Assembly (NCBI RefSeq): GCF_964213995.1
Contig: NC_135825.1
Span: 18,290,001-18,354,000 of the forward strand
Direction: 5' to 3'
Source: Mustelus asterias
Taxonomy: Eukaryota
Length of the DNA stretch: 64,000 nt
The stretch's first letter is position 1. Each line of letters begins with the position of its first letter. The notes below the pieces were generated by a model. It was not told the DNA's origin. It searched no databases and saw only the letters and a list, made by a program, of their open reading frames with translations. Made by a program: the position numbers and the translations under genes. This document shows positions 3,306 through 62,527 of this stretch, one piece after another.

Positions 3306-3330
3306 CTGTTCCAAGTAGCAGCTTCGCCAT
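3306..3330 (-). CDS. chia: Chitinase copy C, coding exon 1 only (MAKLLLGT); the rest of the gene lies left of the window
   Basis: ATG GCG AAG CTG CTA CTT GGA ACA G|gtaag, 25 nt. Homologous to exon 1 of A and B with the same promoter. Integrity of the remainder cannot be seen. Confidence 0.85.
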
Positions 3331-3560
3331 CTTGCAACTGGGCTGTTGTGGGCATCAACTCTCTCTTTTATACACTGAGTTTATCATTAGTGGTCAATAA
3401 TTCCAAACATCATTAACTTTATCACTGGGAAAAGATTAGTCACAATGGAAAAATAATAGTTCTTATCTTATCTTCCTAACATTATTTTCACCTTCTCATA
3501 AATAACAACCTTTCTCCTCCACAATGTCATTCAGGCTGTTGACCTTCATTGTAACCCCAA
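3331..3560 (-). promoter_or_regulatory. Copy C 5'UTR and promoter: TATA box plus GATA cluster
   Basis: TATAAAA at 3366-3372; WGATAA at 3381-3386 and 3419-3424; tandem AGATAAGATAA at 3463-3473; block conserved in all three copies. Confidence 0.75.
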
Positions 3561-3829
3561 ACGTGTTCCTGTACTTTAACAGAGGCAAGAAAATTGGTGG
3601 AAGCATTGAGGGTCCCATGTTCTTTTACTGTAGGACCAGGAAGAACGGTAATCCTCAGTGCTTCAGCTCTAGGTAGGTATGGAGCTTCTGTTGGTCAGCG
3701 TCATGGTGGGCTGTATGGGTTCAACACAGGATGAGTGAACTGAGCGATTTGAAAATGAAAAACTGATCAAGCAAGACAAGCCAGACCCTCATTCAGATCA
3801 ATTACTTCTACCTATGAATGTTCGTGACA

Positions 3830-4160
3830 TGTGGCTAGCACTGCTGCTTCACAATGCCAGGGACCCGGGTGCAATTCCAAACTTGGGTCACTGTCTGTGT
3901 GGAGTTTGCACATTCTCCCTGTGACTATGTGGGTTTACTCCGGGTGCTCTGGTTGTTTGGAGGTTAGGTTGATTGGTCATACTAAATTGTCCCTTAGTAT
4001 CCAAGGGGTGCCATTTAGGTGGATTGGCCATTATCAATGCACGGGGTTACAGGGTTAGGGAGGGGGATTGGGCTTGGGTGGGGTGCTCTTTCGGAGGGTT
4101 GGTGCTGACTCGATGGGCTGAATGGCCTGTTCTGTACTGTAGGGATTCTATGATTCTGTG
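3830..4160 (+). mobile_element. HE1-type tRNA-derived SINE
   Basis: tagcactgctgc..tcaca..ccagggacccgggt head, core, CR1-like tail ctgtagggattctatgattct. Confidence 0.85.
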
Positions 4161-7885: not shown

Positions 7886-9940
7886 AAGTGGAGACCAGTC
7901 CCCTCCAGTGAAGAAAGCACAAGACCCCAGGCCTCAATGAAGAAAGATGTCTTCTCACCTGTAGACCAGTCACAGCAGTCACCTGCACCCTCCACCAGAC
8001 CAGAGAGACACACACCTCGGTGGGGGGGTCAAAGATTTAGGACAGAATTTTTCGGCTGCGCTTACCTCAAAACTGGAAAATCCCACCCAAGGTCAACAGA
8101 CCTTTGCATGGTCCGCCCCCCAGCCCGCTATGATTCCCATGGTGGATGGGACAGGAAAATTCGTCCCCCTCCCAGCATAGGCTTGGGTTCACTTCATTGA
8201 CAGGGGTCCACAGCAGGCAGAGGCAGCAACAGCCAAGATTCCTGGTAAATCTTACAAAATGAAGATGAATTTGCGAATGCACTGGTTTGCCATTGTATTC
8301 AGTGTGATAATGTAAGATTGTATCTTAAGTAACCACAGTTATATTTTAACATCATTTAATTGATTTGTCATGATAATTACTTGTTTATGAGCAAATTGGT
8401 TTTATGATTAGTAAATATATTAGCAGAGAAGCTCACAGCATCAGCCACATGTGCCATCTACAATATGCACCGCAGCAACACGTCAGGGTTCCGATGGCAG
8501 CATCCTCCAAACCCTACCAGCTAGAAAGACAAGGGCAGCAGATGTACCACCCACAGGTTTCTCTCTAACTGATACAGCAATATCCCATAGAATCAAATTG
8601 CCGTTCCTTCACTATCATTTGTCAAAGCCCTGGAAGTCCCTCCCTAACAGCACCTCCATAACACTGGCTACAACAGTTCAAGAAGGCTGCACACCGTCAC
8701 CGTCTCAAGGGCAATTGAGGATGGGCAAAAAGTAGTAGTTTTGCCAATGACACACACATCCAAAAAAAAGAATAAGTGACAAAAATATCCACATAGGAAG
8801 ATGGGACTTCAACTGGAAGCAGTGTTTTCACAATATAATTAACTGCCAATTCAAATTTTTCCCCACTACATATCTGCCATAAAGATCATTAATTAATCTG
8901 CTACATAAATTCTAAGTTTCATTTTCTCATTGGAAAAACATTGGTTTGATGTGGGCTACAAAATCTCAATTATTTCACTTTCTTTCCTGTATTGAACACA
9001 GAAATGCTTTCCCTGAGATGTGCTGGAATGAGTGTAGATATCGGAGAGCTGTGCTTTGAGTTTGTGTCAAAGTTTCAAATGTCTGTTTCTGCCTTAAACT
9101 GTTACGTTGGAAATGAGTTCATGCTGGTGAAATCCTTTCAACCGATATTGTTGCATTTCATTCATTAAAAACAAAATACCAATAGACCGTTTTCTTAATG
9201 AATCAATGATTTTATTTTGCTGTTTAAACTGCAATTTACATCTTCAGTTGAGACAAAGTAGATGTGGTACATTAATGGTCTTCATCCACAAAGTAGTGTC
9301 ACTTCAGTAATTAAACTGAAGACTGGTAACAGCTTCACTGGTGCCCAACGAAGATTGATGGCAGGCTGGAAAAATAAAGAGTAGTTCAGTGTTCTCTTCT
9401 TAAACAATAATGTTTCACTATCACATCAGTTACATTAAAAACAGTTTCTATATTAGGTCTATTTTTAAAATTATAATTCTTTTCTTGTTTCCTTGCCTTT
9501 CTTCTTCCCCAACAACATATCTTCACCCAACAGAACTGACCAGGACCACACACACACATACACAGAAATACCCAATTCCACAACCAGGTTCTGGAACATA
9601 TATTGAAAAGCAGCTTGGGCTGAAATAAAACTCAGTAACCTTGTTTTATGAAGATGCCATTGCAGATATTTATGATGTCAGAGCTCTGCCACAGGGATTG
9701 CAGTAGTTCAAGATGGTGGCTAATTGAGGATAATTTAGGATGGGCAATAAACAGTGGTTATGACAGGGACTCCCACATCCCATGAACCAATGAGAATCGC
9801 CCCAAAGCAAGAGCACACCATCCATTTCAACCCGATCAACACTCGAAAAATGAACCTACATTCATTTGACACACACACTGTCAGGATTTGTTGGAATTCT
9901 ATACCCAGTGAACTGCGTTTTGTTAACTTTACCCACGTAT

Positions 9941-9946
9941 TTTAAT
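9941..9946 (-). terminator. Candidate poly(A) signal ATTAAA of copy A
   Basis: About 140 nt after the stop, with a GT-rich tract further downstream (about 9868-9880). Confidence 0.5.
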
Positions 9947-10083: not shown

Positions 10084-10556
10084 TTACGCCCAGTTGCAAC
10101 AGCTGCAGGCGGTGTCATAGACCAATCCAGAACCGCAATGTTCCTCGTAGGTCCTTCCATTGACACATTCGTAAAACTTGTTCTTGTCTTTGCGATCAGG
10201 GTAGGTACCATTGGCTTTGCCAACGCAGAACCCACTTCCGCCACCGCCACTTCCACCACCACCACTGCTGCTGCCACCACCACTGCTGCTGCTGCCACCA
10301 CCACCACCGCTGCTGCTGCCACCACCACCACCGCTGCTGCTGCCACCACCACCGCTGCTGCTGCCACCACCACCGCTGCCACCACCACCGCTGCTGCTGC
10401 CACCACCACCACCGCTGCTGCTGCCACCACCGCTGCTGCTGCCACCACCACCGCTGCTGCTGCCACCACCACCGCTGCTGCTGCCACCACCGCCACCACT
10501 AGGAGCCTGAGTAGGAGGAACAGCTGGCGGCAGTGTTGTTTTGGATGGAGCACAAG
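10084..10556 (-). CDS. chia: Copy A exon 11: Pro/Thr hinge, (Gly/Ser)90 linker, CBM14 ([48 protein letters not shown])
   Basis: 473 nt, phase-1 acceptor tttccttctag, 6-Cys chitin-binding domain, TAA at 10084-10086. This frame is not in the ORF track. Confidence 0.95.
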
Positions 10557-13500
10557 CTAGAAGGAAATAAAATTCACAAGTTCATTGCTTGCTGCAAAAT
10601 TAATAGTAAACAAAGTCAAACGTTGTAATGTCAGGGCTGTTGCTGCTTAGAAAATCTCAGGGTAGAACTCAATTCACAAATGTCTTGGTAATTCAGTTCA
10701 GTAAGAGCTACTGGCGAATTCTGATGACAGATCTAATGCTGCCTGAGTCTATTTGTTGGGGTGAAAATTTTGACATGCGATTTAATTATCACTTTATTTT
10801 TAATCAAATTGCACAGTTCTTGAACTCCATCTGATTTTTAAAAAAAGATAAATCTGTATCACAATACTGCTGCCTCACAGTGCCAGGGACACGCGTTCGA
10901 TTCCCGGCTTGTGTCAGAGTCTGTGTGGAGTTTGCATGTTCTCCTCGTGTCTGAGTGGGTTTCCTCCGGGTCTTCCGGTTTCCTCCCACAGTCCGAAAGA
11001 CATGCTGGTTAGGTGCATTGGCCATGGTAAATTCTCCCTCAGTGCACTCGATCAGATGCCAGAGTGTGGCGACTAGAGGATTTTCACAGTAACTTCATTA
11101 CAGTGTTAATCTAAGCCTACTTGTGACTAATAAATAAATAAAACTAAATAAATAAACATCCACTTAAATGACAAAATAATACATTCAGTTTATTTAATTA
11201 TCAATGAGTACTGGATGTAACAACCAGTACAGATTCATGACTTAGCATATTAATATTTTTATGAAAATGTGTTATACAAAATTGACTTTATTACATCCTC
11301 AGCTGGATATATATTAATTTATGATGCCATCATCTGGATATTCACTTTTTTTGAAAAGGACATTTTTCCTTAGCAAAGGATACTGGCTTACAGCAGCTGC
11401 TGCATTGCATTTGTAAAGGGCACAGTTTGCTTTTTATGGAGACCTGGGGATTTCAAAGAGAAGTCACATAATCCAGCTCTTGGGTAAAAAGATACTGGAT
11501 TTTCAACAGTCAAGGAGAGACTGCATCAGAGCCAACAGCCAACCCCATCTCTCTTTCTTCATCAAAGCTGAGCTATTTGTGATTTGAAAATCCCAACAGA
11601 AGAACTTATTGCTGCAAACTGAGAGTGCAAAAAGGAGAATTCCTAATTAAAAACCACAACATCTAGTGAAAACACCAAGATCCAGCAGCTACTGTGGACC
11701 AGGACCAATCAGCTGCAAAGACACATCTGGTCACCATGTGATTTTTTACTTCAGTGAATCTACTTGTTACACTGTCGAGTTTTTTAATAGCTGATACTTG
11801 AAGAGTTTTATTTCCTTTTTGCATTCTTGTCGAGTGGGGCATGGGGTTTCCTGAATCGTGTGCATTGTAGATTGGTTGGACTAGCTAAGAAATGATTGCT
11901 GAGTCATTAGCACATCTAAACAATAACTGGATTATTAGATATAATGACTTACAGGTGCACATATCTAATGCAAGCAACATTATCACTCTTTACTCTTGGC
12001 CATGTGTCCCTTGCATCATCTTTATGGGCAGTGCTCTTTATACCGTCCCACACATTGGACTGGATTATACGGCCTCGCTTGTCCCAAAACAGTAAAATCG
12101 TGCCCGAGGTTAACGGACCTTCCCATTGTCTGCCCCTCACCCACTCCGATTCCCATGGTGGGCGGGCCAGTAAAATTCCGGCCATTACATCTTACTGATC
12201 CAATACTACAATGTGTGTGTTGCCTGTGCATTAGTAAATTTTGTTTTTCATTAGTGAGTATCATAGAATCTCTACAGTGCAGAAAGAGGCCATTTGACCC
12301 ATCGAGTCTGCACTGACCACAATCCCAACTGTACCCTATCCCCGTAACCCATGCATTTACCCAAGCTAATCCCCCTGACACTAAGGGGTAATATAGCATA
12401 GCCAATCCACCTAATGCACACATCTTTGGACTGTGGGAGGAAACCGGAGCACCTGGAGGAAACCCACGCAGACATGGGAAGAATGTGCAAACTCCACACA
12501 GACCCAAGCCCGGGAATTGAACCCGGGTCCCTGGCACTGTGAGGCAGCAGTGCTAACCACTGTGCCACCATGCCGTCCTATTTGGACATAGTTGAGCATT
12601 TTAATATTTTGGTAGTAATTTCTGCATCTTTACCTGAATGAGTTTTAGGAATAAAGATGACACTTTACTTGTTAACTGAAGGAGCCTGGTTGGATTTTTC
12701 CTTGCACCAGGTTATATACAGTTAAACATATTCGAAATTAGCAATTATTAGTTGCTGCCCATACTGACTTTCTGATAGAAACTAGTAATCAGTTCCAAGT
12801 ATAAAGAATGCTGATACCTGCAGAAATTCCAAGCTCAGTGTGCAGCGCATTAATGAGAGGATAAGGCCCTTCGTTGCAGAAAGAACCAGAGAAATCATCC
12901 ATAGCAAGTGTCCACACCATGGCTCCTCCAAAGTTGTTCTTTTTCAACCACTTAGCCTGAAAGACATTGTTCACAACTTTAATTCACAAATTCTTGTTTG
13001 AAAGCAACTTCTATCTCAAATTTAACTTATACTCCCTAGGGTCAGTGTTGGGACCTTTGCTTTCCCTCATATATGTTAAGGACCTAGACCTTGGTATACT
13101 GGGCACAATTTCAAAGTCTGCAGATGACACAAAACCTGACAACATTAGGATCCGGGAGGGGGGAGGATAGTGCAGGATCTCGAAAGTCCAGAGGCAAGTT
13201 GGTGGAAAGGGCATACAGATGGCAGATGAGACTCAATGCAGAGAAAGGTGAAGTAATTCATCTGAGGGGAAGAACATGAAAAGGCAATATAAAACAAAAG
13301 ATACTTATTTGAAGGACCTGGGTATATATGCACCTAGGTAATTTCATTTTGCAGGACAGGTTGAGAGAGCACCCAATAATGGATGGAGTACCCAGGGCAC
13401 AGTATACAAGTACAAAGAGGTTGGGCAGGATTTTACAGTCTCGCTCAGGTGAGATCATAAAATCCCGCCTGAAGCCAACGGGGATTTCTATTCTGGGAAC

Positions 13501-33981: not shown

Positions 33982-34210
33982 CTTGCAGCTGGTGTGTTGT
34001 GGTCATCAACTCTCTCTTTTATATACTGAGTTTATCATTAGTGCTAAATAACTCCAAACACCATTAACCTTATTACTGGTAAAGGGTCAGTCACAATGGA
34101 AAAATAACAGGTCTTATCTTATCTTCATAACATTATTTGCATCACCCTGTGAGTAACCATTTTTCTCCTCTACAATGTTATCTGGATTGTTGACCTTCAT
34201 TGCAACCCCA
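33982..34210 (-). promoter_or_regulatory. Copy A 5'UTR and promoter
   Basis: TATATAAAA at 34017-34025; TGATAA at 34032-34037; tandem GATA at 34114-34124. Confidence 0.75.
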
Positions 34211-35235: not shown

Positions 35236-35239
35236 TGTT

Positions 35240-40340: not shown

Positions 40341-40732
40341 TTACGCCCAGTTGCAACAGTCACAGGAAGGATCAAAGACTAATCCGGAAGCGCAACTCTC
40401 CTGGTAGGTCCTTCCATTGACACATTCGTAAAACTTGTTCTTGTCTTTTGGATCAGCATAGGTACCACTGGCTTTGCCGGCGCAGAATCCACTTCCGCCA
40501 CTGCTGCCGCCACCACTTCCACCACCACTGCTACCGCCACCACCACTGCTACCGCCACCACCACTGCTACTGCCACCACCACCACCACTGCTACTGCCAC
40601 CACCACCACTGCTACTGCCACCACCACCACCACTGCTACTGCCACCACCACCACCACTGCTTCCGCCACCACCACTCGGGGCCTGGGTAGGAGGAACAGC
40701 TGGCCGCAGTGTTGTTTTGGATGGAACACAAG
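40341..40732 (-). CDS. chia: Copy B exon 11: hinge, (Gly/Ser)63 linker, CBM14
   Basis: 392 nt; [48 protein letters not shown]. Confidence 0.95.
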
Positions 40733-49700: not shown

Positions 49701-52700
49701 AGGTTTAAGGGTTCAGGACAATGTTATTATATGAGTGAATGGGAACCATTAAGAATCAATCCCTGGTCAAACTCTTCTCTTCACCTATTTGCTGCCCTTT
49801 GGTGAGATCTTCGACAATCACAGGGGTCCAGATCTACACATCCATTGATAATACCTAGCTCTACATCATCAATACCCTCCTCTCCTCTGCCTCTGTACGG
49901 TCAGATTATTTGCCCAACTATCAGTCTGGGATGACCCACAATTTTTTCCCGTTAGTCGTTACATAGAGACATATGAATTAGGAGGAGGAATAGGCAGACT
50001 CTGCTTCCACTGCCTTTTCAGGAAGAGAGTTCCAAAGATTTACAGGCCTCTGAGAGAAAACATTTCTCCTCATCTTGGTCTTAAATGAGCAATCCCTTAT
50101 TTTTAAACAGTGACCCTTTGTTCTCGATCCAACAAGAGAAAGCATCCTCTCCACCTCCACCCTGTCAATATCCCTCAGGGTTTAAAGATTTTGGTGAAGT
50201 CACCTCTCACTCTTCTCAACTCTTGTGGATAAAAAGCTAATCTATCCAACCTTTTCTCATAAAACAACCTATTCCTAGTAATAGTCTAATAAATCTCTGA
50301 ACTGCTTTGAACACATTTACATCTGCCCTTAAATAAGGAGACCAATACTGTAAACAATACTCCAGATGTGGTCTCACCATTGCCCTGTACAACCTCTCTA
50401 CTTTTGTAATCAATTTTCCTCACAGTAAGTGATAACATTTTATCAGCGTTCCTAATTATTTGCTGTGCCTGTATACTAGCCTTTTTGTGATTCATGCACT
50501 AGGACACCCAGATCCCTTTGCACCTCAGAGCTTTGCAAACTCTCACCATTTAGATAAGTTTATTTTTAATTCTCCCTGCCAAAATGGACAATTCCTCATT
50601 TAAATCATTTATGTTCCATTTGCCAGTGTTTTGTCCACTCACTCAACCCATGTCCCTTTGTGGCCTCCTTACATCATCTTAAAAATTTATTTTCCTACCT
50701 ATCTTTGTGTCATCAGCAAGTTTAGCAACCATACCATCAGTCTATTCATCCAACTCATTTATATTAATTGTAAAAAGTTGAGGTCCCAGCTCTGTGGCAC
50801 ACCACATGTCAGACAGAATTCATTATCTACAGTCCCTGTCGCCAACTTCACCACCAGTTCTTTCCTGTTTACTGTCTCAGACTGAACCAGGTTGCTCACC
50901 AGCTCATGTCCTATTCAGTGCCCAGTTGAGCTTCCAAACCTATATTGTCTGAATTGCAATGACAGCCTATTTTTCACCTCAATAACACGGTCCAACCTCT
51001 CCCCTATCTCAGCCCATCTTCAGCAAAAAGCATTATGTACAATTTTGTCATTTCCAAGATCAGTAAGGTAGTAATTAGACCAGTCCATCTCGGAGTTGGG
51101 CCTTGGGCTTTATCTATATCGTTTGGATGAGCTGTCAGGTTCAGTCCTGACTCCACAGCTCATTCACCCCACAGGAGAAACACATTTTGGGCAATGAGGG
51201 AGGGACGGGGGTGCATCTCCTAGTGTGTGATGTTTGGGGCAGGACCTCCTAGTTCTACAGAAATTGAGTGATTTTCTACATTAAAAGCATTATACAGATG
51301 TGACTTATTCTTGCTTTAGTTTATATCCTCTGAATCATTCCTCTACCTCAGATATCAACTTTTCAATTCTTTAATTCTGATTCTAAGTATTAATGTAAAA
51401 CAGTTCAAATGTTAAAGACTGCAAAATTTTCTTTCAAGTTGCTGTGCAACTGATTGTTTAACAGATCAGCTATATTAAACTCTGCAGATGGATCGATTTT
51501 CAAATCCATCTGAAAATATTAAAATGCTACCAAGATGCTCATAAACTTGAAATATCCTGCACTGTAATTGAGCTCACTCAAATTTGTCTGAGAACAAAAT
51601 AACAGTATAATTACAAAGTAGAAAGAATATAGCCAAATAGTTGATGCTATTTGATTATCCATGGAAATATTTCAGTCAAATGAAGAGAAATTGAAATGCC
51701 AAACAACTTTCTGACTGCACCCTTGCAAAGGAAATGTTCTGGGGCAGATCACCCATTAACAATGTGGTTGTATGGCATTCCTTTGCTAATTTAACCACTT
51801 AATGATAAATAGATTACATTGCTAAAAATGCCATACAAAGTAATTCCTCACATTTCTACCACTTATCGCTCGCTATAATCTAATTTTATTTTCATTAACT
51901 TCACTGTAAGTTAGAAATGGAATTGGGTAAACCTGGAACCATCACATTTGGACTTTGATGTTATTTTGCATGACTACACAAACATTCAGATGCATGTTAC
52001 TTTCAAAAAGCATTTAGTGGGGGAACAGCAGGTGGGAGAATCCAAAAGGTTGTTGGATTTGAACAAAACATGCACCTGTCAGCAGGCTACCCAACAATAA
52101 GTCATCTTCAAGTAATGCAGCAAATAATCCACTCCTTTATAATTAGGCTTGAACTTGAGAAGGGAATCTCCTCTTTCTTCTATTCCCCATTTAATTCCCA
52201 AGGCTCCACTTACAAAACTGATCTTTCAGTATTCTTAAGTGGCAGAATGTCTCCATTCTCTTTCCACCCCTCAGTTGATCACAACAGGTGTTCTTAAAGA
52301 ATCTTCTTGTCAATTCAATAAATTTTTAACTGTTGAAGTGCTGTGGCTGTGAAATGCACACGTAGACAGGTTTTCCTCTTCGCTTTATAAGAAAAGCAAA
52401 GAATATTTATTGTAGTTTTGCAGCATGTATTCTACACCGGTCTAAATGAAATCATAGGTACACTCCAAGTTATATGCGCACATGGACTGAGATTTTCCAG
52501 TTCCACACGTGTGGAATCCATCACAAACCAGACTGAAAAATTAGTGAGGCAGCCACATGTCCATTGACTTTTGGCAGGAATTTTCCAACAGGCACGCTTC
52601 ATTAGCTGGGATTTTCCAATTCCTGGTTTCATCAGGCAGGTTTGACGATGGGCATGAAAAATTTCATGAGTATCCCAAAGTCATGGGGTGGAGTTTTCTC

Positions 52701-55700
52701 ATTTTCCTGCACAGTAGCACAACAGATAGGTATAACAGGGTGGAAGCCGCCACCCCCAAGGATGGCTTCCTGTACCATATTTTTAGCCACTTAGGCAAAA
52801 AGAAAGTTAAGGGGCTGGTCCCACCATGTCATGCTGGCGGGACCCATCAGCCACCTAAGTTTATAAAAGATTGGGACATCCTGATCTTAAAAAATTGAAA
52901 TAGAAACTCCCGGCCATGCAGCCCGCTCCCATCAATGAACTCACACACTTCCCACCCCGTCCACCCCCTCCCAATCATACAAAGGATGCAGTGAGTGAGA
53001 ATTGTATTTATTTGTGGTGAACACTGTCTACAAGTACTTAACATCCATGCCCACACTATGCAAATAGAGCTTCTTAACCTGTTCAACCCGGCCGCTACAT
53101 TTTGGTGCATCCCCAATATTCAAAGCGGAGGTAGAGGCGGCCTGCTGTCTGCCATGCCCTGCTGTCTGATATGATCTTGCCGCGTGGCAGTGCCACCCTC
53201 TTGGCCTGTGCAGCTTGAGCTGAGGCAGTTACAGGGAGAGGGGGTTCAGATGGATGGGATACTCCTGGAGTCGCCTGAGTGGATGGTCCCGGGGTTGTAC
53301 GCCAGCTTCTCCTTGTCTCTTTGGCTGCCTGAGGACTTCTGACTTCTTTCATGGGCTAGAGGGACAGCTGGAGTGAGCTCAGAAAGCCAACCATGGTGTG
53401 CCTCTGCGTTGTGGAGGGTGTGGGTGAAAGCTATGATGTTTCTTCAATCTCTACATCAAGGCAATCATCTGTGGTGGTCTCAGAACTGTCTTGGACCTGG
53501 CTAGTGCACTTCTCGAGTTGCTTCCCAAATGCGCCTGTAAAGAAGAGAGACTTAATTCGTGCTTGGCAGAGGTCTTTAGAAACAGGAGATATGACTCACA
53601 TCAGTGTTGTGTGATGTATGATGCTGTGCTGGATCCTCACTTGGTTTATCGCCACGTCCCTCACCATCAGAGTGGTCAGTTTCCACTTCAGCCAACTGGA
53701 GGGCATTTTCATTGAAGATCGTGGGGGATTTTATCTCAGGCATCCCTCCACCCATCTGAGATTTCTCATAAAAACTCTACAGTGCAGAAGAAGGCCATTC
53801 AGCCCATCAAGTCTGCACCAACTCTCCGATAGAGCATCTTTCCCAGGCCCACCCCCCCCCCCCATCCCTGTAACCCCACGCATTATTAACTCCACTAATC
53901 CCCTAACCTGCACATCTTCAAACACTAAGGGGCAATTTAGCATGGCCACTCCACCTAACCTGCATATCTTCACACTGTGGAAGGAAACTGGAGCACCACA
54001 AGAAAACCCACACAGACACGGGGAGAATGTGTAAACTTCACACAGTCACCCAAGCCGGGAATTGAACTCAGGTCCTTGGAGCTGTGAGGCAGCAATGCTG
54101 ACCACTGTGCCACCGTGCCACCCATCATGATTTTCAAATCCTTCCATGGCCTCACCCCTCCCTATCTCTGTGATTTCTCCCTGCCCCACAGCCCCCTGAG
54201 ATTGCTGCACTCTCATTCTGACCGATTCCTGATTTCAATTTCTCCACCATTAGTGCCTGTCCTCTTAACTGCCTGGAACCTAAACCCTGGAATTCCTTCC
54301 CAAAATCTCTGTGCCTTTCCTCTAATGGCCCAATTTCAGGCACTATCCTAAAACCTACCTCTTTGACCAAGCTTTTGGTCATCTGCCCTAATACCTCATG
54401 CCACGGTTTGTTTTGCAATGCTCCAGTGAGATGTTAAAGGGACTCTACCAATGCAGGTTGTTGTTGCAGCACTCCATCTGTTCCATCTTAAACTACATTT
54501 TCAATGTTACTAGTATTTAATGGCAGGAATGTTCATTCTCGGTGTGCTTTTATTTGCGGAATTTATTAGAAAGCTTAATTTCACAGAAATGTTCAAGGCT
54601 GGAATGGAACCCAGGTCCCTGGCACTGTGAGATAGCATTGCTAACCACTGTGCCACCGTGCCGCTCTCTTGTTGAGAGCCAACTTGTCCTGCATGAAAAT
54701 AGATAGACAGAGTGTAAGCAGGACACGTGTCAGGGCAGATGATGAGAATGCCTGGCATGTGTGGATGGTGAGTGGGAGCAGTGAGGTGATGAGTTCACAG
54801 AGGGAGATGAAGATTTGCATGGGAGAGCGAGTGGCTGTGTCCCTTGAGCTGGGCGGTGAGTGACCCCCCTGTGTATGTCTAATGGGTATGAGAGTGCATG
54901 AGATGAGAGTGTTGGGAGAAATCACTTATCCTGGCAGAACGGAGATCATTCATGCTTTTGTAGCAATGGATCCTTGCCCCCCTCTGCAGGGAGTTGGTGA
55001 TGGCTACCACTGCCTCTGTGCTGGCTTATTGTTCCGGCTCGATGGTCTCCTCCCTGTGCGGAGGTACAGGATGTTATGTCATCCCTCCACTACATCCAGC
55101 AGTCTGCAGAGGGTGGCATCAGAAAAATCAGAAAACTTGGGTGCAGCCTCCCTTCCAGCCATCAGCTGACACCCTGACCAAAATGAAGTGGTTGGTGAGC
55201 GTCGGGGCAGTCGTTAATGTAGCACCCCCATCATTAACATGCTAAGGTAATGGCAGGACAGGCGAATCAGAAGGCACCCACTCGCGAACCAGCATGAATC
55301 CCATGGGCTCAAATTGTTATTTCTATGTGCCATACATTACAGCGAGAATATTAACCATAACCATTGGGTTGACACCGCTTTTCCTGCCCACCATCGGTCC
55401 TTGTCAATTTCCAGCAAAATTCCGCCCTTAGACACAGAAGTACATTACAATGTGGAAGTGTAAGTTAAATAGTTTAAGAATCCAATACCGTCAATTAAAT
55501 ATGGCTGCTGCAGATTGATGGGTTGGGTGGTTTCAGACTGGGCTTGATTGTCTTTCCAGATTCTGTATCAAGACAATTTAAACTTGGAGGTTTCCTGTCT
55601 TTTTTCTGGAACTTCTGGAGTCAGCAGTTACTGCATTAATATTTAAGATTCTGCCTGAGATTTGTGGTTGATCCAAAGACAAGCTTGCAGAACAGCTGGA

Positions 55701-58700
55701 GGTAGAGAGACAGCACCAACTGACCATCCTTCTAGTCTCACTCTGTACTGATCTGGAACAAAGTAGTTTCCTTAAACACATGAACCCTTCTCACAAGTTG
55801 TTGCGTTTCTCAAACGTGGTCACAGGAAGCTGGTTTCAAGTCCACTGTTTAAAAATGATTTCAATATAAGGCCAATGGCATTCCTTTCTCAGCCACAGCC
55901 ATTGGCCAAAGTGATTGAACCTAATGGCTTGGTCCACAACCAGCTGAATCCATTGGTTATGTCTGGATGTTTTATGAATGGTTTAGGAGATGAGTCCTCT
56001 GAGGAATCCTCTGGCCGTTCATGCCCCACCGCTGCTGCTGGCGAGGACGGGGAATTTGGTGCTCAGCCACAGAATCCCACTGGTGTGAATGGCCGGAGAA
56101 AATCGTCCACACTGATTGAAGGTGGTTATCTCTAGTGGGCCACTTCTAGACATTTTGGCGCCTTGCTAATGGCTTTGTAATTTGTAGGGTACAGCTAGAG
56201 AACCACAGAAAAGTCATGCACTGAAAGCAGCCAATCAGTCCATCATGTCAGTGCTAGGCAAAAAATAAAAAGCTAGCCTCCCATTCTTATCCCATCTTCC
56301 AGCACTTTGTCCATGATCTGCAGGTTTCAGCACTTTGGGTGCAGATCCAGGTACCTTTCAATGAGTTGAGGGTCTTAACCACCGAATCAGACAATGAATT
56401 CCAAACACGCACCACACTCTGGGTAAAGGAGTTTACCTCATGTCCACTCTAAACCTTTTACCACTCACTTTAAATCTGTGCCTCCTGATAATTGACCTCT
56501 CTGCTAGGGGAAGTAGGACATCCTTGTCTACTCTATATGGACAGGTCATAATTTTGTACATCTCAATCAGCTTACCCCTCAGCCTCCTCAGTTCTAAGGA
56601 AAACAATCCCAACCTAACTAAACTTTCTTCATAACTGCAGTTTTCAAACCCTGGCAACATTCTTGTAAATCTCCTCTGTACTCTCCCCAGAGCAATTGTG
56701 TCCTTCCTGTAATGTGGTGACTAGAACATTACACAAAATTCTAGCAGTGGCCTAGGCAACTGTTTATACAATTCCAGTGTTACATCCCTGCTTTTGTATT
56801 CTATACCTTGCCCAGTAAGGGAAAGCATTCCATATGCTTTCTTGAACCACCTTGTCCACCTGTCCTGCCACCTTCAGGGACTTGTGGACATGTACTCTAA
56901 GGTCGCTCACTTCCTCAACCTCTCTCAATATCTTCCCATTTATTGAATATTCCCTTGCTTTGTTTAGCCTCCCCAAATATATTACATATGATTTTTTCTG
57001 GATTGAATTCCACTTCCCACTTCTCTGCCACTCAACTAAACCATTGATCTCATTCTGGAATCGACAATTATCCTTTTCACTGTACAACCAGTTTTCGTGT
57101 CATCGACAAATGTCCCAATCATGACATCAAAATATACAACAAGCAACAATGGCACCAACACTGAGCCCAATGAAATACCACTGGAAACCACCTATCAGCA
57201 ATTACCCTTAGTTTCCTGTTGCTGAGCCAATTTTGGACCCAATTTGCCACTTCCCTTATATCCCATGGGCTTTTATTTTTCTGACCAGCTTGCCATGTGG
57301 GACCTTGTCAAGTGCCTTATTGAAATCCAGGTAGACTGCATCCACTGCACTACCTTCATCAATCTGAGGATTGGAAATGATCCTCAGAGCATCTATTATT
57401 TCCTCCTCGGCTTTCTTTAAGAAATTGAGATACAATCCATTCAGTCCTGATGATTTATCCACCTTCAAGTTTGTCAGGTCCTCCATTACTTGCTCCCTCA
57501 CTATGCTTATTGTATCTAATATTCTATACTCCTCCTCTTTAACTAGAATGTCTGCATCAGTCCTCTCCTGAAGACAGAAACAAAATACTTATTGAGAACC
57601 CTACCCACATCTACAGCAACAGTGCACGAGTTACCATGTACATCTCTCATAGGCCCTATCCTTTCCTTAGTTATTCTCTTGCTGTTAATGTACTGGTAAA
57701 ACATCTTTGGGTTTACTTTGATTTTACCTGCCAATTTTTTTGTACCCTATCTTTGCTTTCCTACTTTCCATTTTTTATTGACCCTGTACATTCTACACTT
57801 AAGTTTTTTGCGGCTATCATAAGCCTTCTGCTTTATCTTATTTTGTATGCATCTATATAACAGGAGGCTCCAGATTTAGCAATACCATCCTGTCTTTGTG
57901 CGGACAGGTCTACACTGTGCCCGTAGAATCTTGCCTTTGAATGTCTCCCAGTGGTCTGTCACTGCTTTCCCTTCAAGTAGCTGCAGCCAGTCCACATTCA
58001 CAAGATCATCTCTCAGCTTTGTAAAATTTGTCTTCCCCCAATTTAGAAATTTTACTCCTGTTCTGACCTTACCTTTTATAATATTGATGCTAAATCTAAC
58101 CATTATGCTCACTATTTTCAAAATGGTCCTCCGTTGCTACTTCATCCACTTGCCCAGCTTCATTTCTTAAAACTAAGTCTAGAATTGTGTTCCTTCTCAT
58201 TGGGCTTGTTTCGTGCTGGCTGAAAAAATTCTCTTGAAAGCAGTTCAAGAATTTCATGCCCTCTGTGCCCTTCACACTATTTGTATCCCAACTGATATTA
58301 TGATAGTTGAAGTACCCAACTATTATTGTTTTTGCACTCAGAACTTTGCCTACATGTTTGCTCTTCCATATCCCTCTCACCATTTGGAGGCCAACAGATG
58401 TTTTTTATGAATGGAAAATGATTTCCAGTGGTGTTCCATGGGGCTCCGTATTGGGGCCATTGTTGTTTGTTGTATATATAGGTGCCATGATTGGGAAATT
58501 TGGAGATTTGATACGAAAATTGGCCATGGAGTGAAAAGTGTCCCAGTAGTGTGGTTGCCCCTTTTTTATTTCTGAGCTCAACACATAAGGTCTCAGTCGA
58601 TTCATTTAACATATCATCCCTCCTTACGGAAGTAATTGATTCTCTTTTTTAAAGTTTAAGTTTTTAAAAATTTGATATAAGTAATAATCCTACCAATTTT

Positions 58701-61700
58701 CGTGCCATCCACTTCTTGATCATACTCCCTACATTTAAGTCCAAGTCATTAATGTATACCACAAATAGCAAAGGTCGTAACACCAAACTCTACAAAACCT
58801 CACTGAAGAAAGACTTCCAGTCACAGAAACATTCCTCTACCATCACCCTCTGCTTCCTTGTCTCAGCCAATTTTGGATCCAATGTATCACTTTTCCTTTG
58901 ATCCCATAGCCCATACTTTCTTGACCTGTCTGCCATGAGCGACCAAATTAAAAGCCTTGCTAAAGTCCATATGAACCAGATCAAATGCACTATTCTCATC
59001 AACACTCCTGGCTCCCTCCTCAAAAAAATGATGAAATTAGTTAAACATGATCTTCCCTTCACAAGTCCATGCTAACTAACCCTGATTAATCTCTGCCTAT
59101 CGAAATGTAAATATATTCTGTCCCTCAGAATTCTTTCTAGTAATTTAGTTGGGACATTTCTAACTCAAAAGGCATAACTCAAGATTGGAATAAGCTCTCT
59201 GGCATGTCAAAAACTAAGGCCTTTTCAGCTTGAGTGCTGAAGGAAGCTTGCCAATATCCTTTTAACAAGTCTAACTTAGTGACATAAGTGAAGATTTTTA
59301 GTCCGTCAATACAGTCCTCCAGGTCAGATATCAAGTATAAGTCTGCTCTATATTAAACTTTTCTGTAATCAGTGCAGAGCCTTGTTGAGACATTGGACTT
59401 TGGCACAAGAAAAATCAGAAAACTCAATCTGCTGTGGCTCATCTCCATCAGGAAGCTTCTATTTAATTTCTTTCTGAACTTTTGCCAATTTTGCAGAACT
59501 TAAGCAATAGGGACTTTGTTTTAGAGTTATAGAATCATAGAAGTTTACATCATGGAAACAGGCCCTTCAGCCCAACTTGTCCATGCTGTCCTTTATTTAC
59601 CACTGAGCTAGTCCCAATTGCCCGTGTTTGGCCATATCCCTCTATACCCATCTTACCCATGTAACTGTCTAAATGCTTTTTAAAAGACAAAATTGTACCC
59701 ACCCCTACTACTACCTCTGGCAGCTTGTTCCAGACATTCATCACCCTCTGTGTAAAAGAATTGCCCCTCTGGACCCTTTTGTATTTCTCCCCTCGCACCT
59801 TAAACCTATGCCCTCTAGTTTTAGACTCTACTTTTGGTAAAAGGTGTTGACTATCTCGCTGATCTATGCCCCTTATTATTTTATAGACCTCTATAAGATC
59901 ATCTTGGGAGGTGTTGCTCTTACATCTGCATTGTGTAGAGCAGGTGTTATATATGTTGGGGTGTAGTCCCTTTAAGGGTGACCCGGGGTGTGGTGTGATC
60001 TGCCCAGGAACAACCCTGAGAGGGCAGTTGTGATTTGGAGTGTGGAGCGAGTAAGACTGCAATAAATACCTGTCTTCCCTGACATCTGTCTGTGAAGTGA
60101 GTTCTTCAGGGTACTCCTCAGCAGTAAAAAATTTAACAGCAGGGTCCTGCATCCTGGCCTAGATCTTTTTAAACAATGAAATCATCTCTGTTAAGTCACC
60201 TCTCTCTTCTGTGTCTAAGTAACACAGCATCGTGCCCAGCCTCCCTAACATTTCAGTGCTGGTGAACTGTCAGGATTTTGATTTGATTTATTATTGTCAC
60301 ATGTATTGGGATACAGTGAAAAGTATTGTTTCTTGCACGCGATACAGACAAAACATATTGTTCATAGAGTGCATAGGGGAGAAGGAAAGGAGAGGGTGCA
60401 AAATGTAGTGTTACAGTCATAGCTAGGGTGAAGAGAAAGATCAGAAGAGATTTAAAGAAAGCATTATTAGGAAGTCTAAAGGAGTTAGAGTTAAGTTTTA
60501 TGAGCATTGATTTAGAGGGTATGCTGGGGCCAGCTCACAAGAAGTCACCACACTCTGACGCCATCTTCCGCATTTTTTCTGCACAGTTGGGGGTTCAAAT
60601 TGGTAATAGTTCAGGCTTTCTTCTCCCACTCTTCCACTTGCCTGCTCTTTCCTCACTCTCTGGCATAGCTGTGCATGTATGTCCTCTTCCCGGTTCTAAT
60701 ACCACTCTAACATCCTTTGTTTTTTCCTATGGTCTAGAGTTAAACAGAACAATTCACTTCTTCAATGAGTGGGAATGGAGGGATACAAAAGAATGGTCTA
60801 GTTTGGACCAGGGAGTGGCGTGGGCTTGGAGGGCCGAAGGGCCTGTTCCTAAGCTGTATTGTTCTCTGTTCTTTGTTCTTTGTTCAATCCTGTTTGCTAC
60901 ACTTATGCCGTTTGTTTTTTTTTAGGATAAAGTCATGTCCATCCATTGGAATTTCATGGGAAATCCTCAATATTTCCCTAGAGTATCTCAGAGGCATTAT
61001 TACATGGTGGACCACAGTCAAGTCTTCAGCCACAGCCAATGAGGCTGTCTCCAATTCCTCAAGAGAAGTACATCCTTTAAGTAGCAGTACTCCTGAACCG
61101 TCTCTGCATCAGATTCAGCTGGGGCATTCTGTGCTAACTTTTTCAACAAGGCTGTTGGCTTATAGGGCCTTGTCCAAGGAAAACAGCTTATGAATCCTTT
61201 ATTTAGAGCCTGTCTTGTCAGCTGTGCTTTCTGTCAAGTCCCTTTTGCATGTACCAATCTGATGTACCCTGACAAAACATACACATTTTCCATTTAATTT
61301 CCAGTTTGGAGATGGTCTGCTTTGTTACAATGGAAGCACACAGGGTTGTCAGTCATCGCTGCTGTTCACAGCACCTTCCTTTTCAGTATGAGGAGGGCCC
61401 CCTGTGTTCCCATTTCTACTTTCTGACCTATGGCAGCTTATTCTCCCGTCACTCTCTCATCTTCTGTCCGTTTTGGGATTTTGGATGTGATTATGGAAGA
61501 AATCCGCTTGGGAAAAGTGTTTGTGGACATGCTCATAGTCAGCCACAATCACTGCTTGATTGACTTTGGAGACACTTTGCTCTTCAACATGTGGGACAAG
61601 TATCCCACCCAGGTCCTATACAAAGATAGGGTCTTCGTGGGATTGTGGTTGTTGCAGGCTCAATGGGCCAAATGGCCTTTTTCTGCACTGTAGGGATTCT

Positions 61701-62527
61701 ATGATTCTATTCTATGATAAGTACATAAGAGTGCTTACAAACACACATATACATGTTCAAAACAGTCAATTGTAGGTTGATGCTTTGGATAGTTTCAGAC
61801 TGGATTCAATGTTCTTTCCTGATTCTGCATCAAAGCAAGTTAAAGATGATTATAGATGATTTCCGTCTTTTCTTCTGCAATCAGCAGCTGCATTTTGATA
61901 TTGAAGATGCTGCCTGCATTGTGTGGCTGGTCAAAAGACAGGCAGGGGACAAGTTTGCAGGACAGTGAGAGAGAGAGGGTACCAACTGAGGGCCTTTCTT
62001 ATCTCACTCTGACTGGCCTAGAACAAAACAGTTTCTTAAACACAAAGAGGGTTAGTTTGCTCATCACATGATGTCTGCTCACAAACTGACCAGGAATCCA
62101 ACATGGTCATATGAAACTAGTTTCAAAACATTTAAATTATAAAATGGTGGTATAAAAGTGGAGTACCTTCCTCAATCAGGATTCACTGTTCAACATAAAT
62201 GATTCAATGGTTTGACCCACACTCAGCTGAATCTATAGGTTATATCTGGATGTGTTGTGAATGCATCATTCATCTATGTTAATGGGCTACCTCTAGTCAA
62301 CCCAGGTCCTTACTGATGGCTTTGTAATTTGTAAGGTACAGCTATGTGAATGCTTGGCCATCTCAGGTGCTGCAGTTTAAGTCACTTTTCAAATGCTTTT
62401 GTTCAGCCAATTGAAACTTATATACTGGGTTCAGCCCCTCAATGATATAAAGCATGCATTTAAAGCAATATCAAAGGTAATAAAATGGTAAAATAGGCTT
62501 ACCTGTTCCAAGTAGAAGCTTTGCCAT
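40341..62527 (-). CDS. chia: Chitinase copy B (complete, 11 exons, 515 aa): GH18 acidic mammalian chitinase-like, with 63-aa Gly/Ser linker and CBM14
   Basis: join(62503-62527,49618-49647,49330-49531,48094-48150,47680-47830,47032-47156,45679-45805,45394-45576,44019-44135,41425-41563,40341-40732) = 1548 nt. Exons 1-10 are the same size as in copy [12 protein letters not shown]; ends GLVFDPSCDCCNWA like mammalian AMCase. Confidence 0.95.
40488..40676 (-). repeat. Coding repeat (GGT/GGC/AGT/AGC) encoding the GS linker of copy B
   Basis: 189 nt of acc/gcc/act/gct triplets on the + strand. Confidence 0.95.
41425..41563 (-). CDS. chia: Copy B exon 10
   Basis: 139 nt, [15 protein letters not shown]..., donor gtaagt. 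Confidence 0.93.
41949..42164. mobile_element. Penelope-like palindromic element nested in CR1
   Basis: Inverted arms aacaccaggttaaagtccaa / ttggactttaacctggtgtt; imperfect TSD ctaagYcattgaatYca at 41932-41948 and 42165-42181. Confidence 0.8.
44019..44135 (-). CDS. chia: Copy B exon 9
   Basis: 117 nt, ICAFLKDG...SFTAK. Confidence 0.95.
45030..45325 (+). mobile_element. HE1-type SINE, (TAAA)n-tail variant
   Basis: Consensus-like copy. Confidence 0.85.
45394..45576 (-). CDS. chia: Copy B exon 8
   Basis: 183 nt, NYTMIHWREEGAPAEKL...SYYE. Confidence 0.95.
45679..45805 (-). CDS. chia: Copy B exon 7
   Basis: 127 nt, [27 protein letters not shown]. Confidence 0.95.
47032..47156 (-). CDS. chia: Copy B exon 6 ([25 protein letters not shown]...LGQ)
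   Basis: 125 nt, tag/gtaagt. Confidence 0.93.
47680..47830 (-). CDS. chia: Copy B exon 5, catalytic motif [11 protein letters not shown]
   Basis: 151 nt, within ORF 47401..47856. Confidence 0.95.
48094..48150 (-). CDS. chia: Copy B exon 4 ([18 protein letters not shown])
   Basis: 57 nt, ag/gtaag. Confidence 0.95.
48879..49060. mobile_element. Second Penelope-like family, palindromic fragment (related pieces at 1-30 and 16535-16632)
   Basis: aaaagcaaaatactgcagatgctggaatctgaaataaaaacagaaaatgctgga... with partial inverted arm. Confidence 0.6.
49330..49531 (-). CDS. chia: Copy B exon 3
   Basis: 202 nt, [41 protein letters not shown]. Confidence 0.95.
49618..49647 (-). CDS. chia: Copy B exon 2 ([11 protein letters not shown])
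   Basis: 30 nt, ttacag/gtgagt. Confidence 0.9.
49960..50830 (-). mobile_element. Degenerate CR1 fragment
   Basis: ORF 49978..50160, [17 protein letters not shown]. Confidence 0.8.
52486..55430 (-). mobile_element. Decayed Harbinger-like element inside the 3' LTR, with nested SINE (53765-54120), L2-like piece (54120-54465) and SINE head (54595-54665)
   Basis: Minus-strand Myb-like remnant AAPKFSD..ATLCRLLDVVEG...SMNDLRSAR at about 54930-55160. Confidence 0.55.
56196..59145 (-). mobile_element. Long degenerate CR1 LINE (endonuclease to RT), rearranged or nested
   Basis: ORF fragments ETLCVELRNKKG, ILDLVL, KVNPKMFYQYI, LDFNKALDKVPH, LGLFSLELRRLRG. Confidence 0.88.
59523..59900 (-). mobile_element. 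CR1 3' fragment
   Basis: C-terminal half of ORF 59550..60152 (DLIEVYKII...FTQRVMNVWNKLP). Confidence 0.88.
59945..60138 (+). mobile_element. Solo LTR (194 bp)
   Basis: TGTTA...TAACA termini, internal AATAAA, perfect 5-bp TSD GCAGG at 59940-59944 and 60139-60143. Confidence 0.85.
60745..60885 (+). mobile_element. Very short CR1 3' end, same family as 17890-19698
   Basis: ggagggatacaaaag..tggtctagtttggaccagggag...(gttcttt)n. Confidence 0.8.
62503..62527 (-). CDS. chia: Copy B exon 1 (MAKLLLGT)
   Basis: 25 nt, identical to copy A exon 1, gtaagc donor. Confidence 0.9.

What the first reader, a model, noticed from the sequence alone, without database searches (positions are those of the whole stretch)
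3306..62527. Tandem array of at least three acidic-chitinase paralogs with about 30-kb periodicity
Seen: three homologous promoter + exon 1 blocks (ATGs at 3330, 33981, 62527; spacings 30,651 and 28,546 bp) and two complete, intact 11-exon genes. The intergenic spacers are also co-linear (about 3400-10080 vs 34030-40340) and share TE remnants, so whole units were duplicated. Known: GH18 + CBM14 with the extra Cys pair (DPCLC and the Cys opening the last exon) is AMCase/CHIA-type, and CHIA copy number tracks chitin-rich diets in mammals. Inference: a lineage-specific gastric chitinase expansion in a crustacean-eating shark. Micro-exons (25/30/57 nt) and a 13-kb intron make it easy to mis-annotate.
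Basis: partly seen in the sequence, partly recalled or inferred. Interest (0 to 1): 0.7.

Follow-up and report, generated by a model that had tools for sequence, protein, structure and literature searches.

The report
Ancient 27-gene shark chitinase cluster
This shark DNA holds three neighbouring genes for chitin-digesting enzymes inside a cluster of 27 related genes; they likely work in the stomach, but they split apart before catsharks and houndsharks did, so they are not a recent adaptation of one crab-eating species.

Summary
There are three minus-strand chitinase genes (ATGs 3330, 33981, 62527); two have 11 intact coding exons in the window. They are 3 of 12 co-oriented copies in a 1.35-Mb cluster of 27 GH18 loci: 14 CHIA-clade genes, 4 other genes with an intact catalytic motif, 8 with a damaged motif, and 1 pseudogene.

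The 14 form a shark/ray clade sister to bony-vertebrate CHIA, so "CHIA-type" stands. "Lineage-specific" fails for these three: A and C each pair with a catshark ortholog (AU p=1e-6 against one clade). Younger duplications lie elsewhere in the cluster.

New details: the window genes belong to a shark subfamily with a 5-residue deletion beside the catalytic Glu (the Arg145 loop) and Trp71 replaced. All 12 copies have a predicted 12th, non-coding exon. The cluster also holds a shark-only clade of likely inactive chitinase-like lectins.

Gastric expression is inferred; no RNA run was available, and the diet link is untested. My 9 paper searches found no description of this cluster. The scan earlier noted a young chitinase array in another shark.

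The parts
3306..3330 (-). Gene C (g12) coding exon 1, 25 nt; the rest of the gene lies left of the window (G000:C25:18288364->18271615) and is intact
   Evidence: catalytic domain 100% identical to P0076 over 366 aa
3331..3430 (-). Gene C proximal promoter and 5' UTR: two WGATAA motifs and a TATAAAA box
   Evidence: function inferred
2561..3301 (-). LINE-type reverse-transcriptase remnant in intron 1 of gene C
   Evidence: PF00078, E 7.6e-27
9190..9365 (-). Predicted non-coding exon 12 of gene A (acceptor before 9365, AATAAA at 9216-9211; donor after 10070; 704-nt intron; 3' end approximate)
   Evidence: same arrangement in 12 of 12 copies; no transcript seen
10084..10556 (-). Gene A exon 11: Cys387, Pro/Thr stretch, 90-residue Gly/Ser linker (tandem repeat 10232-10497), CBM14, stop
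12818..12956 (-). Gene A exon 10 (139 nt)
15373..15489 (-). Gene A exon 9 (117 nt)
18422..19774 (-). LINE-type reverse-transcriptase remnant in intron 8 of gene A
   Evidence: PF00078, E 8.2e-31
21623..21805 (-). Gene A exon 8 (183 nt; carries the His269 equivalent)
22276..22402 (-). Gene A exon 7 (127 nt; Asn at AMCase His208; Tyr212, Asp213 and Trp218 kept)
24257..24381 (-). Gene A exon 6 (125 nt)
26042..26192 (-). Gene A exon 5 (151 nt, against 166 in full-loop paralogs): intact DxDxE followed by a 5-codon deletion
26962..27018 (-). Gene A exon 4 (57 nt)
29693..29894 (-). Gene A exon 3 (202 nt; DPCLC; Val at AMCase Trp71)
29981..30010 (-). Gene A exon 2 (30 nt, signal-peptide region)
33957..33981 (-). 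Gene A (g13) exon 1 (25 nt)
33982..34081 (-). Gene A promoter and 5' UTR: proximal WGATAA and TATA box; the distal GATA is changed
38405..38583 (-). Predicted non-coding exon 12 of gene B (AATAAA at 38431-38426; donor after 40327; 1,743-nt intron; 3' end approximate)
   Evidence: no transcript seen
40341..40732 (-). Gene B exon 11: 63-residue Gly/Ser linker (repeat 40498-40676), CBM14, stop
41425..49647 (-). Gene B exons 2-10: 49647-49618, 49531-49330, 48150-48094, 47830-47680 (DxDxE plus 5-codon deletion), 47156-47032, 45805-45679, 45576-45394, 44135-44019, 41563-41425
49648..62502 (-). Gene B intron 1, 12,855 bp, rich in repeats
62503..62527 (-). Gene B (g14) exon 1 (25 nt)
62528..62627 (-). 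Gene B promoter and 5' UTR: two WGATAA motifs and a TATA box

Best explanation
The three genes are intact CHIA-type chitinase paralogs in an old shark gene cluster that has grown by repeated tandem duplication, and they likely encode secreted stomach enzymes that would digest dietary chitin with altered substrate grooves. Shown: gene structure, intact D136-D138-E140 motif, Gly/Ser linker and CBM14, a cluster of 27 loci, orthology of A and C with catshark genes, and younger duplicates elsewhere in the cluster. Inferred: unequal crossing-over as the copying mechanism; secretion and gastric expression; catalysis by the standard substrate-assisted GH18 mechanism; and a changed cleavage pattern or pH profile caused by the 5-residue loop deletion after Glu140 and the loss of Trp71, which would let the paralogs share the work instead of only adding dose.
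For: Intact ORFs and splice sites. GH18 + CBM14. AlphaFold model (pLDDT 84) matches AMCase with rmsd 1.4-1.6 A for most AMCase entries. Catalytic and cleft residues D136/D138/E140, W31, W99, Y212, D213, W218, W360 are present in A, B and C (roles from PMC11182645 passages). Trees: CHIA clade 100/98, shark/ray subclade 100/99; A + catshark P0029 100/98, C + catshark P0126/P0450 99/96; AU tests reject one clade for the three copies (p 1.1e-6), for g12-g15 (3e-5) and for g12-g23 (6e-9). dS is 0.17-0.24 and non-coding identity about 78% for the window copies, against dS 0.03-0.08 and 93-96% for young pairs. dN/dS of 0.5-0.6 shows purifying selection with fast change; it is highest in the two loops next to the deletion (1.25-1.38 of gene-wide dS, 9-11 codons each, not significant). 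A fragment carrying only exons 1-3 lies between the near-identical g17 and g18, as expected from unequal crossing-over. For a gastric role: CHIA genes are stomach-specific in salmonids and other vertebrates (PMC10234404 passages); a chitinase was cloned from blue shark stomach (cited in PMC4728518), and the blue shark record P0090 groups with g19/g20 (99/80); a proximal GATA motif is kept in 12 of 12 promoters; His269, which tunes chicken Chia to low pH (PMC13029220 passages), is kept in 14 of 14.
Against: No transcript or protein evidence was seen for A, B or C. The two cloned-type records (blue shark P0090, Mustelus manazo P0465) match full-loop copies g19/g20 and g22, not the short-loop copies in the window. 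Two of the three residues tied to AMCase pH specificity are absent (Arg145 deleted, His208 is Asn), and the catalytic domains have computed pI 7.6-8.9 against 4.9-5.3 for two mammalian records and one chicken record. No catshark ortholog of B was found; B pairs weakly with g15 (88/43). Pooled cleft-loop dN/dS is below 1 (0.63, CI 0.43-0.89), so positive selection is not shown. One origin for the short-loop class had 93% support in the quick tree but was unresolved in the careful tree.
Confidence: 0.75

Rival explanations
1. Diet-driven expansion specific to the crab-eating smooth-hound lineage: selection for more gastric chitinase multiplied CHIA in this lineage.
For: Two Mustelus species feed mostly on benthic crustaceans (PMC7335154 abstract). 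Young duplicates exist in the cluster: g17/g18, g19/g20, g21-g23. There are 14 CHIA-clade genes here, while one bamboo-shark contig carries chitinase models under locus tags 7931, 7936, 7940 and 7941, which suggests a smaller cluster. CHIA number tracks invertebrate diet in mammals (PMC5955627 passages).
Against: The window's own copies predate the catshark split. At least 7 CHIA-clade lineages are shared with catsharks (g01/02, g12, g13, g16, g17/18, g19-23, and by position g14/15). Catsharks have their own duplicates (6 S. canicula and 8 S. torazame rows). Short-loop genes also occur in basking, white, epaulette, bamboo and sevengill sharks. Counts for other species are lower bounds from capped searches.
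Confidence: 0.25
2. Near-neutral birth and death in a duplication-prone locus: extra copies persist through dosage and drift with relaxed selection, and the loop changes carry no special function.
For: The cluster contains a pseudogene (g05), three fragments and copies with lost or broken CBM14 exons. dN/dS is 0.5-0.6 with no significant excess over 1. Other sharks show independent young arrays (near-identical sawshark records).
Against: 14 of 14 CHIA-clade genes are intact. A and C have been kept one-to-one with catshark genes. The deletion is shared across four shark orders. Promoters (82-94% identical in six pairs) and the predicted exon 12 (88-96%) are far more conserved than introns (about 77%).
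Confidence: 0.2
3. The short-loop copies act outside digestion: in mucosal defence against crustacean or fungal parasites, or in remodelling the shark's own chitin.
For: Chitin occurs in the ampullae of Lorenzini and in fish gut, and salmonid chitinases have been linked to louse infestation (PMC10234404 passages). The short-loop copies lack Arg145 and His208 and have basic pI. The same cluster holds lectin-like genes.
Against: Their proximal promoters are 83-92% identical to those of the full-loop copies that match cloned-type records, which suggests shared regulation. His208 is also Asn in those full-loop copies and in Polypterus.
Confidence: 0.12
4. Assembly artefact: haplotypes or repeats placed in tandem.
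For: One false-looking 7-kb duplication (98.7% identical) spans a 200-N gap inside g16, and an unplaced contig (C3552) repeats g09.
Against: The window has no N. A, B and C differ by 17-22% in protein and about 22% in aligned non-coding DNA. Two independent runs' contigs cover gene B with 0-1 differences in the listed long pieces.
Confidence: 0.01

Closest known systems
Vertebrate CHIA / acidic mammalian chitinase (GH18 + CBM14), including the five-paralog placental CHIA cluster
   Same: [quoted passage not shown] DxDxE, W31/W99/W218/W360, H269 and C49 are present. About 60% identity and the same fold. Clustered paralogs.
   Different: 14 CHIA-clade genes against at most 5 in placentals. The shark/ray clade has no one-to-one orthologs in bony vertebrates. 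His208 is Asn. Seven copies lack 5 residues after Glu140 and have Trp71 replaced. Gly/Ser linker of 5-90 residues. Predicted non-coding exon 12. Basic pI.
Fish stomach chitinases AFCase-1/AFCase-2 and single cloned shark chitinases (Prionace glauca, Mustelus manazo, Heterodontus japonicus records)
   Same: Same architecture. Isozymes with different cleavage patterns share the stomach in teleosts (PMC4728518 passages). P0090 is 93% identical to g19/g20 and P0465 is 99% identical to g22.
   Different: All three shark records are full-loop type; none is of the window's short-loop type. They are single sequences, whereas the genome holds 14.
Mammalian chitinase-like lectins (CHI3L1/2, Ym1/2, OVGP1)
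   Same: Loss of the catalytic Glu or Asp in duplicated GH18 genes within a chitinase cluster.
   Different: Applies to neighbours outside the window. The shark clade (18 rows, 100/100; 17 lack Glu140, mostly Arg) nests among active shark genes g07/g08/g11 and apart from the one rodent and one lizard CHI3L-like domain in the tree.
Chitinase expansions in Atlantic salmon and crab-eating frog
   Same: Many GH18 paralogs, with a digestive role proposed.
   Different: Salmon has 10 CHIA-annotated genes, only 3 in the CHIA clade, largely from genome duplications (PMC10234404 passages). The frog count is 15 transcripts with no genome map (PMC13673647 passages). Here there are 27 loci in one 1.35-Mb tandem cluster.

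Membership tests
GH18 chitinase (active) | TIM-barrel GH18 domain | tested here: met
   PF00704 E 6e-97; the model matches AMCase and CHIT1 structures
GH18 chitinase (active) | DxxDxDxE with catalytic Glu; Tyr212/Asp213; cleft Trp31/99/218/360 | tested here: met
   All present in A, B and C
GH18 chitinase (active) | Measured chitin hydrolysis | not testable with these tools
   Needs an enzyme assay
CHIA clade | Groups with vertebrate CHIA, not with CHIT1 or CHIO | tested here: met
   100/98; 99 SH-aLRT
CHIA clade | 11 coding exons, catalytic motif in exon 5, CBM14 with six Cys in exon 11 | tested here: met
CHIA clade | Extra Cys49 with a partner Cys at the start of the last exon | tested here: met
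   Cys49 and Cys387 present; not diagnostic in sharks, as non-CHIA loci carry Cys49 too
CHIA clade | Conserved chromosomal neighbourhood | tested here: inconclusive
   A BTG-family gene lies 0.13 Mb from one end and the only PF05405 (ATP5PB-like) locus 1.05 Mb from the other; that these flank human CHIT1 and CHIA is recalled; no DENN match nearby
AMCase in the strict sense (acid-active) | pH triad Arg145/His208/His269 | tested here: not met
   Arg145 deleted, His208 is Asn, His269 kept (triad as cited in PMC11182645)
AMCase in the strict sense (acid-active) | Acidic pH optimum and stomach expression | not testable with these tools
   No expression data or assay available for these genes
Lineage-specific (houndshark-only) expansion | Copies form one clade that excludes other families' genes | tested here: not met
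   AU p 1.1e-6 (A, B, C), 3e-5 (g12-g15), 6e-9 (g12-g23)
Chitinase-like lectin (neighbours g03, g04, g06, g09, g10, g24, g26, g27) | Catalytic motif substituted in an otherwise open frame | tested here: met
   8 of 27 loci; g10 lacks exons 3-4 next to an assembly gap
Chitinase-like lectin (neighbours g03, g04, g06, g09, g10, g24, g26, g27) | Binds carbohydrate without hydrolysing it | not testable with these tools
   Needs binding and activity assays; some copies also lack Trp31 or Trp360

The most novel reading that the evidence does not exclude
Sharks carry an undescribed GH18 radiation, larger than any vertebrate set in the papers I read, that repeats the mammalian story independently in one cluster. 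It comprises (i) a short-loop CHIA subfamily whose remodelled groove cuts chitin differently from known AMCases, (ii) a shark-only family of catalytically dead chitinase-like lectins that arose separately from CHI3L1/Ym1, and (iii) continuing copy gain whose extent tracks crustacean feeding across sharks.
Probability: 0.35. Interest if true: 0.7.

Novelty: new variant of a known kind. Interest (0 to 1): 0.5.

Why it matters
CHIA copy number is used as a genomic marker of chitin-rich diet in mammals, where it ranges from 0 to 5. A shark locus with 14 intact CHIA-clade genes, of mixed ages and partly orthologous across shark families, allows the same test in a much older lineage, and warns that old copies cannot be read as recent dietary adaptation. 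The short-loop paralogs are natural variants at residues tied to AMCase pH and substrate behaviour. The lectin-like clade would be an independent origin of chitinase-like proteins. The locus is also prone to mis-annotation: a linker cut from A's record, B apparently missing, and a predicted UTR exon.

Tried and rejected
Expression: no RNA holder was listed for gene B. Contigs of two runs laid on 40000-49700 looked genomic and showed no splice joints among the rows displayed. This is not evidence either way.

Folding: the single-sequence fold of P0012 failed (pLDDT 33) and was replaced by an alignment-based fold.

The 93-row careful tree did not finish, so one search is the quick tree; searches are careful LG+G4 trees on 60 and 73 chosen rows. 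g05 (pseudogene) was left out of all trees, isoforms and short fragments were dropped, and only a subset of bony-vertebrate hits was used.

Selection: positive selection on cleft loops was not shown (pooled 0.63, CI 0.43-0.89), and no codon-model program was available.

Other negatives: Rfam found 0 matches in the window. There is no DENN-family marker near the cluster. The idea that 8934-9556 is a dispersed transposon was rejected: 15 of 15 genome matches lie in the cluster (that search skips very common words). Strict 30-kb periodicity, an assembly artefact and the Cys pair as a CHIA diagnostic were all rejected.

Papers: Olland 2009 (PMC2760363) and Hussain & Wilson 2013 (PMID 23558346) were not held, so I could not check whether the latter already treats shark GH18 genes. 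Nine searches were run (the last two topics were AMCase residues and diet); none listed a paper on a shark chitinase cluster. The library lacks most subscription journals, and supplements of shark genome papers were not opened.

Full report
OBSERVATION. The three ATGs are at 3330, 33981 and 62527 on the minus strand, 30,651 and 28,546 bp apart. Exons were placed from six-frame comparison and AG/GT boundaries. Gene A (33981->10084) gives 542 aa and gene B (62527->40341) 515 aa. Each has 11 coding exons (25, 30, 202, 57, 151, 125, 127, 183, 117, 139 nt plus the last), 10 of 10 GT-AG introns and no internal stop; intron 1 of B is 12,855 bp. They are 82.9% identical over 404 aa. The proteins have a hydrophobic N-terminus, a GH18 domain, a Pro/Thr then Gly/Ser linker (90 residues in A, 63 in B) and CBM14. 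Gene C has only exon 1 in the window; the rest is intact next door. The spacers align co-linearly over 3.8 kb of 6.4-6.8 kb at 78.6%. Of 9 co-linear blocks tested, one is clearly a dispersed repeat. The two LINE RT remnants found are in different introns of different copies.

THE CLUSTER. The window is G000:C25:18,290,001-18,354,000. Of 90 genome matches to PF00704, 88 lie at C25:17.64-18.98 Mb and 2 on a small contig that repeats one locus; an exon-3 search gave 27 of 28 matches there. I fetched 17.59-19.05 Mb and modelled 27 loci plus three fragments. Of the 27, 26 have no stop in the exons 3-10 that were found; g05 is a pseudogene, and g10 lacks exons 3-4 beside a 200-N gap. Twelve co-oriented genes (g12-g23, 18.27-18.65 Mb; C=g12, A=g13, B=g14) share promoter, signal exons and a Gly/Ser linker of 5-90 residues; their spacing is 21-47 kb. 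D136/D138/E140 is intact in 18 of 27 loci (g01, g02, g12-g23, g07, g08, g11, g25) and altered in 8 open-frame loci. A BTG-family gene lies at 17.51 Mb and the only PF05405 locus at 20.03 Mb; from recall these are neighbours of human CHIT1 and CHIA. One 7-kb repeat across a gap in g16 (98.7% identical) looks like an assembly error and was counted once.

IDENTITY. Records labelled Mustelus asterias are 100% identical over the aligned catalytic domain to 10 loci (g01, g06, g12, g13, g15, g16, g18, g19, g20, g21). P0012 equals gene A minus 80 linker residues, and the only 240-nt cuts that reproduce it have TA..GG or AG..GT ends, not GT..AG. No retrieved record is closer than 83% to B. The best solved-structure hits are mouse and human AMCase (E 1e-158 to 4e-154, against 1e-144 for CHIT1). 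The alignment-based model (pLDDT 84) superposes on them.

AGE. In a 73-row tree, 7 of the 14 CHIA-like genes were included; they fall with three shark and ray records in a clade (100/99) sister to bony-vertebrate CHIA (joint clade 100/98). The quick 93-row tree places all 14 there (99). In a 60-row tree, A pairs with catshark P0029 (100/98), C with catshark P0126/P0450 (99/96), g16 with P0141 (93/96), g17/18 with five catshark rows (91/92), g19/20 with blue shark P0090 (99/80), and B weakly with g15 (88/43). dS is 0.17 (A-B), 0.20 (C-B) and 0.24 (C-A), against 0.03 (g17-18), 0.06 (g19-20) and 0.06-0.08 (g21-23); aligned unit DNA is 77-78% identical against 93-96%. So the window's copies predate the catshark-houndshark split (Jurassic, from recall), while about five to six duplications elsewhere are younger. 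The family is shark/ray-specific but not smooth-hound-specific. Catsharks gave 6 and 8 CHIA-clade rows, and bamboo-shark locus tags 7931, 7936, 7940 and 7941 on one contig follow the same order as g27, g19-23, the lectin-like genes and g01/02. These counts are lower bounds.

WHAT IS DIFFERENT. In AMCase numbering, g12-g18 (7 of 14) have a 151-nt exon 5 that removes five residues after Glu140, including the Arg145 loop, and have Val or Ala at Trp71; g16-g18 also lack Trp218. The deletion occurs in catsharks and in basking, white, epaulette, bamboo and sevengill sharks. A single origin was supported (93) and unresolved. His208 is Asn in all 14 and in every shark or ray CHIA row; His269 is kept in 14 of 14. 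Arg145, His208 and His269 are cited as the AMCase pH triad, and Trp31/360/99/218 as the -3/-1/+1/+2 stacking residues (PMC11182645, passages); His269 tunes chicken Chia to pH 2 (PMC13029220, passages). dN/dS is 0.5-0.6 among g12-g15, highest in the two loops around the deletion (1.38 and 1.25 of gene dS, on 9 and 11 codons) but 0.63 (0.43-0.89) for all eight cleft loops. The most conserved 'spacer' block (8934-9556, 38148-38773) has 15 of 15 genome matches inside the cluster and follows every one of the 12 genes. In 12 of 12 copies an AG|GT donor lies 11-14 nt after the stop (seen directly for g12, which my pattern missed), and a pyrimidine-AG acceptor with AATAAA 148-152 nt later lies 0.66-7.9 kb downstream. 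I infer a non-coding exon 12. The intron side of this block is also 81-94% conserved, so gene conversion or a regulatory element may contribute. Promoters keep a proximal WGATAA in 12 of 12 copies, a distal one in 10 of 12 and TATAAAA in 9 of 12.

NEIGHBOURS. g03, g04, g06, g09 and g10 form, with 13 records from catsharks, white, basking, bamboo and whale sharks, a clade (100/100) nested among active genes g07/g08/g11; 17 of its 18 rows lack Glu140. It is separate from the single rodent and lizard CHI3L-like domains sampled, which points to an independent origin of chitinase-like lectins; sampling of mammalian lectins was thin. No locus grouped with the three mammalian CHIT1 rows.

MECHANISM. 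Shown: intact duplicated genes, catalytic residues, mixed ages, and a 5'-only fragment between the near-identical g17 and g18. Inferred: unequal crossing-over copied whole units; the products are secreted; CBM14 on a long flexible linker holds the enzyme on chitin while Asp138/Glu140 drive substrate-assisted hydrolysis (established for GH18); and the short-loop copies cut with a different register or pH profile, as teleost AFCase-1 and -2 do (PMC4728518, passages). The stomach is the likely site: CHIA is stomach-specific in salmonids (PMC10234404, passages), a chitinase was cloned from blue shark stomach (cited in PMC4728518; I assume it is P0090), and a Mustelus manazo record is 99% identical to g22 (tissue not seen). 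Both are full-loop genes, so expression of A, B and C remains untested. Smooth-hounds eat mostly benthic crustaceans (PMC7335154, abstract; two other Mustelus species), but the diet link cannot be read from copies shared with catsharks.

COMPARISON AND NOVELTY. Placental mammals have at most five CHIA genes, tracking invertebrate diet (PMC5955627, passages). Salmon has 10 CHIA-annotated genes, three of them in the CHIA clade. The crab-eating frog has 15 unmapped transcripts (PMC13673647, passages). Most of these shark genes are already auto-annotated as 'acidic mammalian chitinase-like', and tandem chitinase clusters are a known kind of system. My searches listed no paper on this cluster, the short-loop subfamily or the shark lectin-like clade; Hussain & Wilson 2013 could not be read. 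The scan's notes held nothing on this genome and two notes on other elasmobranchs. Verdict: real, much larger than reported, CHIA-type, old rather than species-specific; a new variant of a known kind, interest 0.5.

Noticed in passing
G000:C25:17,741,651-18,191,253 (g03, g04, g06, g09, g10; loci among L101-L120, L081-L100, L001-L011): Shark-only clade of GH18 genes without the catalytic Glu (mostly Glu->Arg), with open frames and relatives in six other shark species; likely chitinase-like lectins of independent origin.
   Followed up: partly
window 8934-9556 and 38148-38773: Non-coding block 84-93% identical between older copies, found after all 12 genes; holds a predicted 3' UTR exon, but its intron side is conserved too (gene conversion or a regulatory element).
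   Followed up: partly
G000:C25:18,698,474-18,985,041 (g24, g26, g27): Divergent genes with altered catalytic motifs (DLHWE, DIVWD, NLDWK); g24 and g26 show more than one CBM14-like repeat in the last exon; g24 and g27 have orthologs with the same motif in carpet sharks.
   Followed up: partly
G000:C25:18,397,000-18,412,000 (g16): Exons 4-6 and part of exon 7 are repeated at 98.7% identity across a 200-N gap; probably an assembly error.
   Followed up: partly
G000:C25:18,458,700-18,463,237: 5' fragment (promoter, exons 1-3) of a g16-like gene between g17 and g18, marking a roughly 47-kb segmental duplication.
   Followed up: partly
G000:C3552 (unplaced contig): Repeats exons of g09 with the same scores; probably an alternate haplotype. 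Not fetched.
   Followed up: no
window 10232-10497 and 40498-40676: The Gly/Ser linker repeat varies from 5 to 90 residues among the 12 copies; the database model of gene A cuts 80 of them.
   Followed up: yes
P0130, P0066 (white and basking shark records): Their short-loop proteins are annotated without CBM14, and the white-shark one has His at Cys49; possible decay or truncation in lamniform sharks.
   Followed up: no
G000:C25:17,993,197-17,993,372 (g07) and g25: g07 has two stops in its CBM14 exon and no exon 11 was found for g25: catalytic-domain-only forms.
   Followed up: no
window 2561-3301, 18422-19774, 56546-59137: Related LINE-type remnants in different introns of C, A and B; a SINE-like family of about 300 bp recurs more than ten times in the window.
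   Followed up: partly
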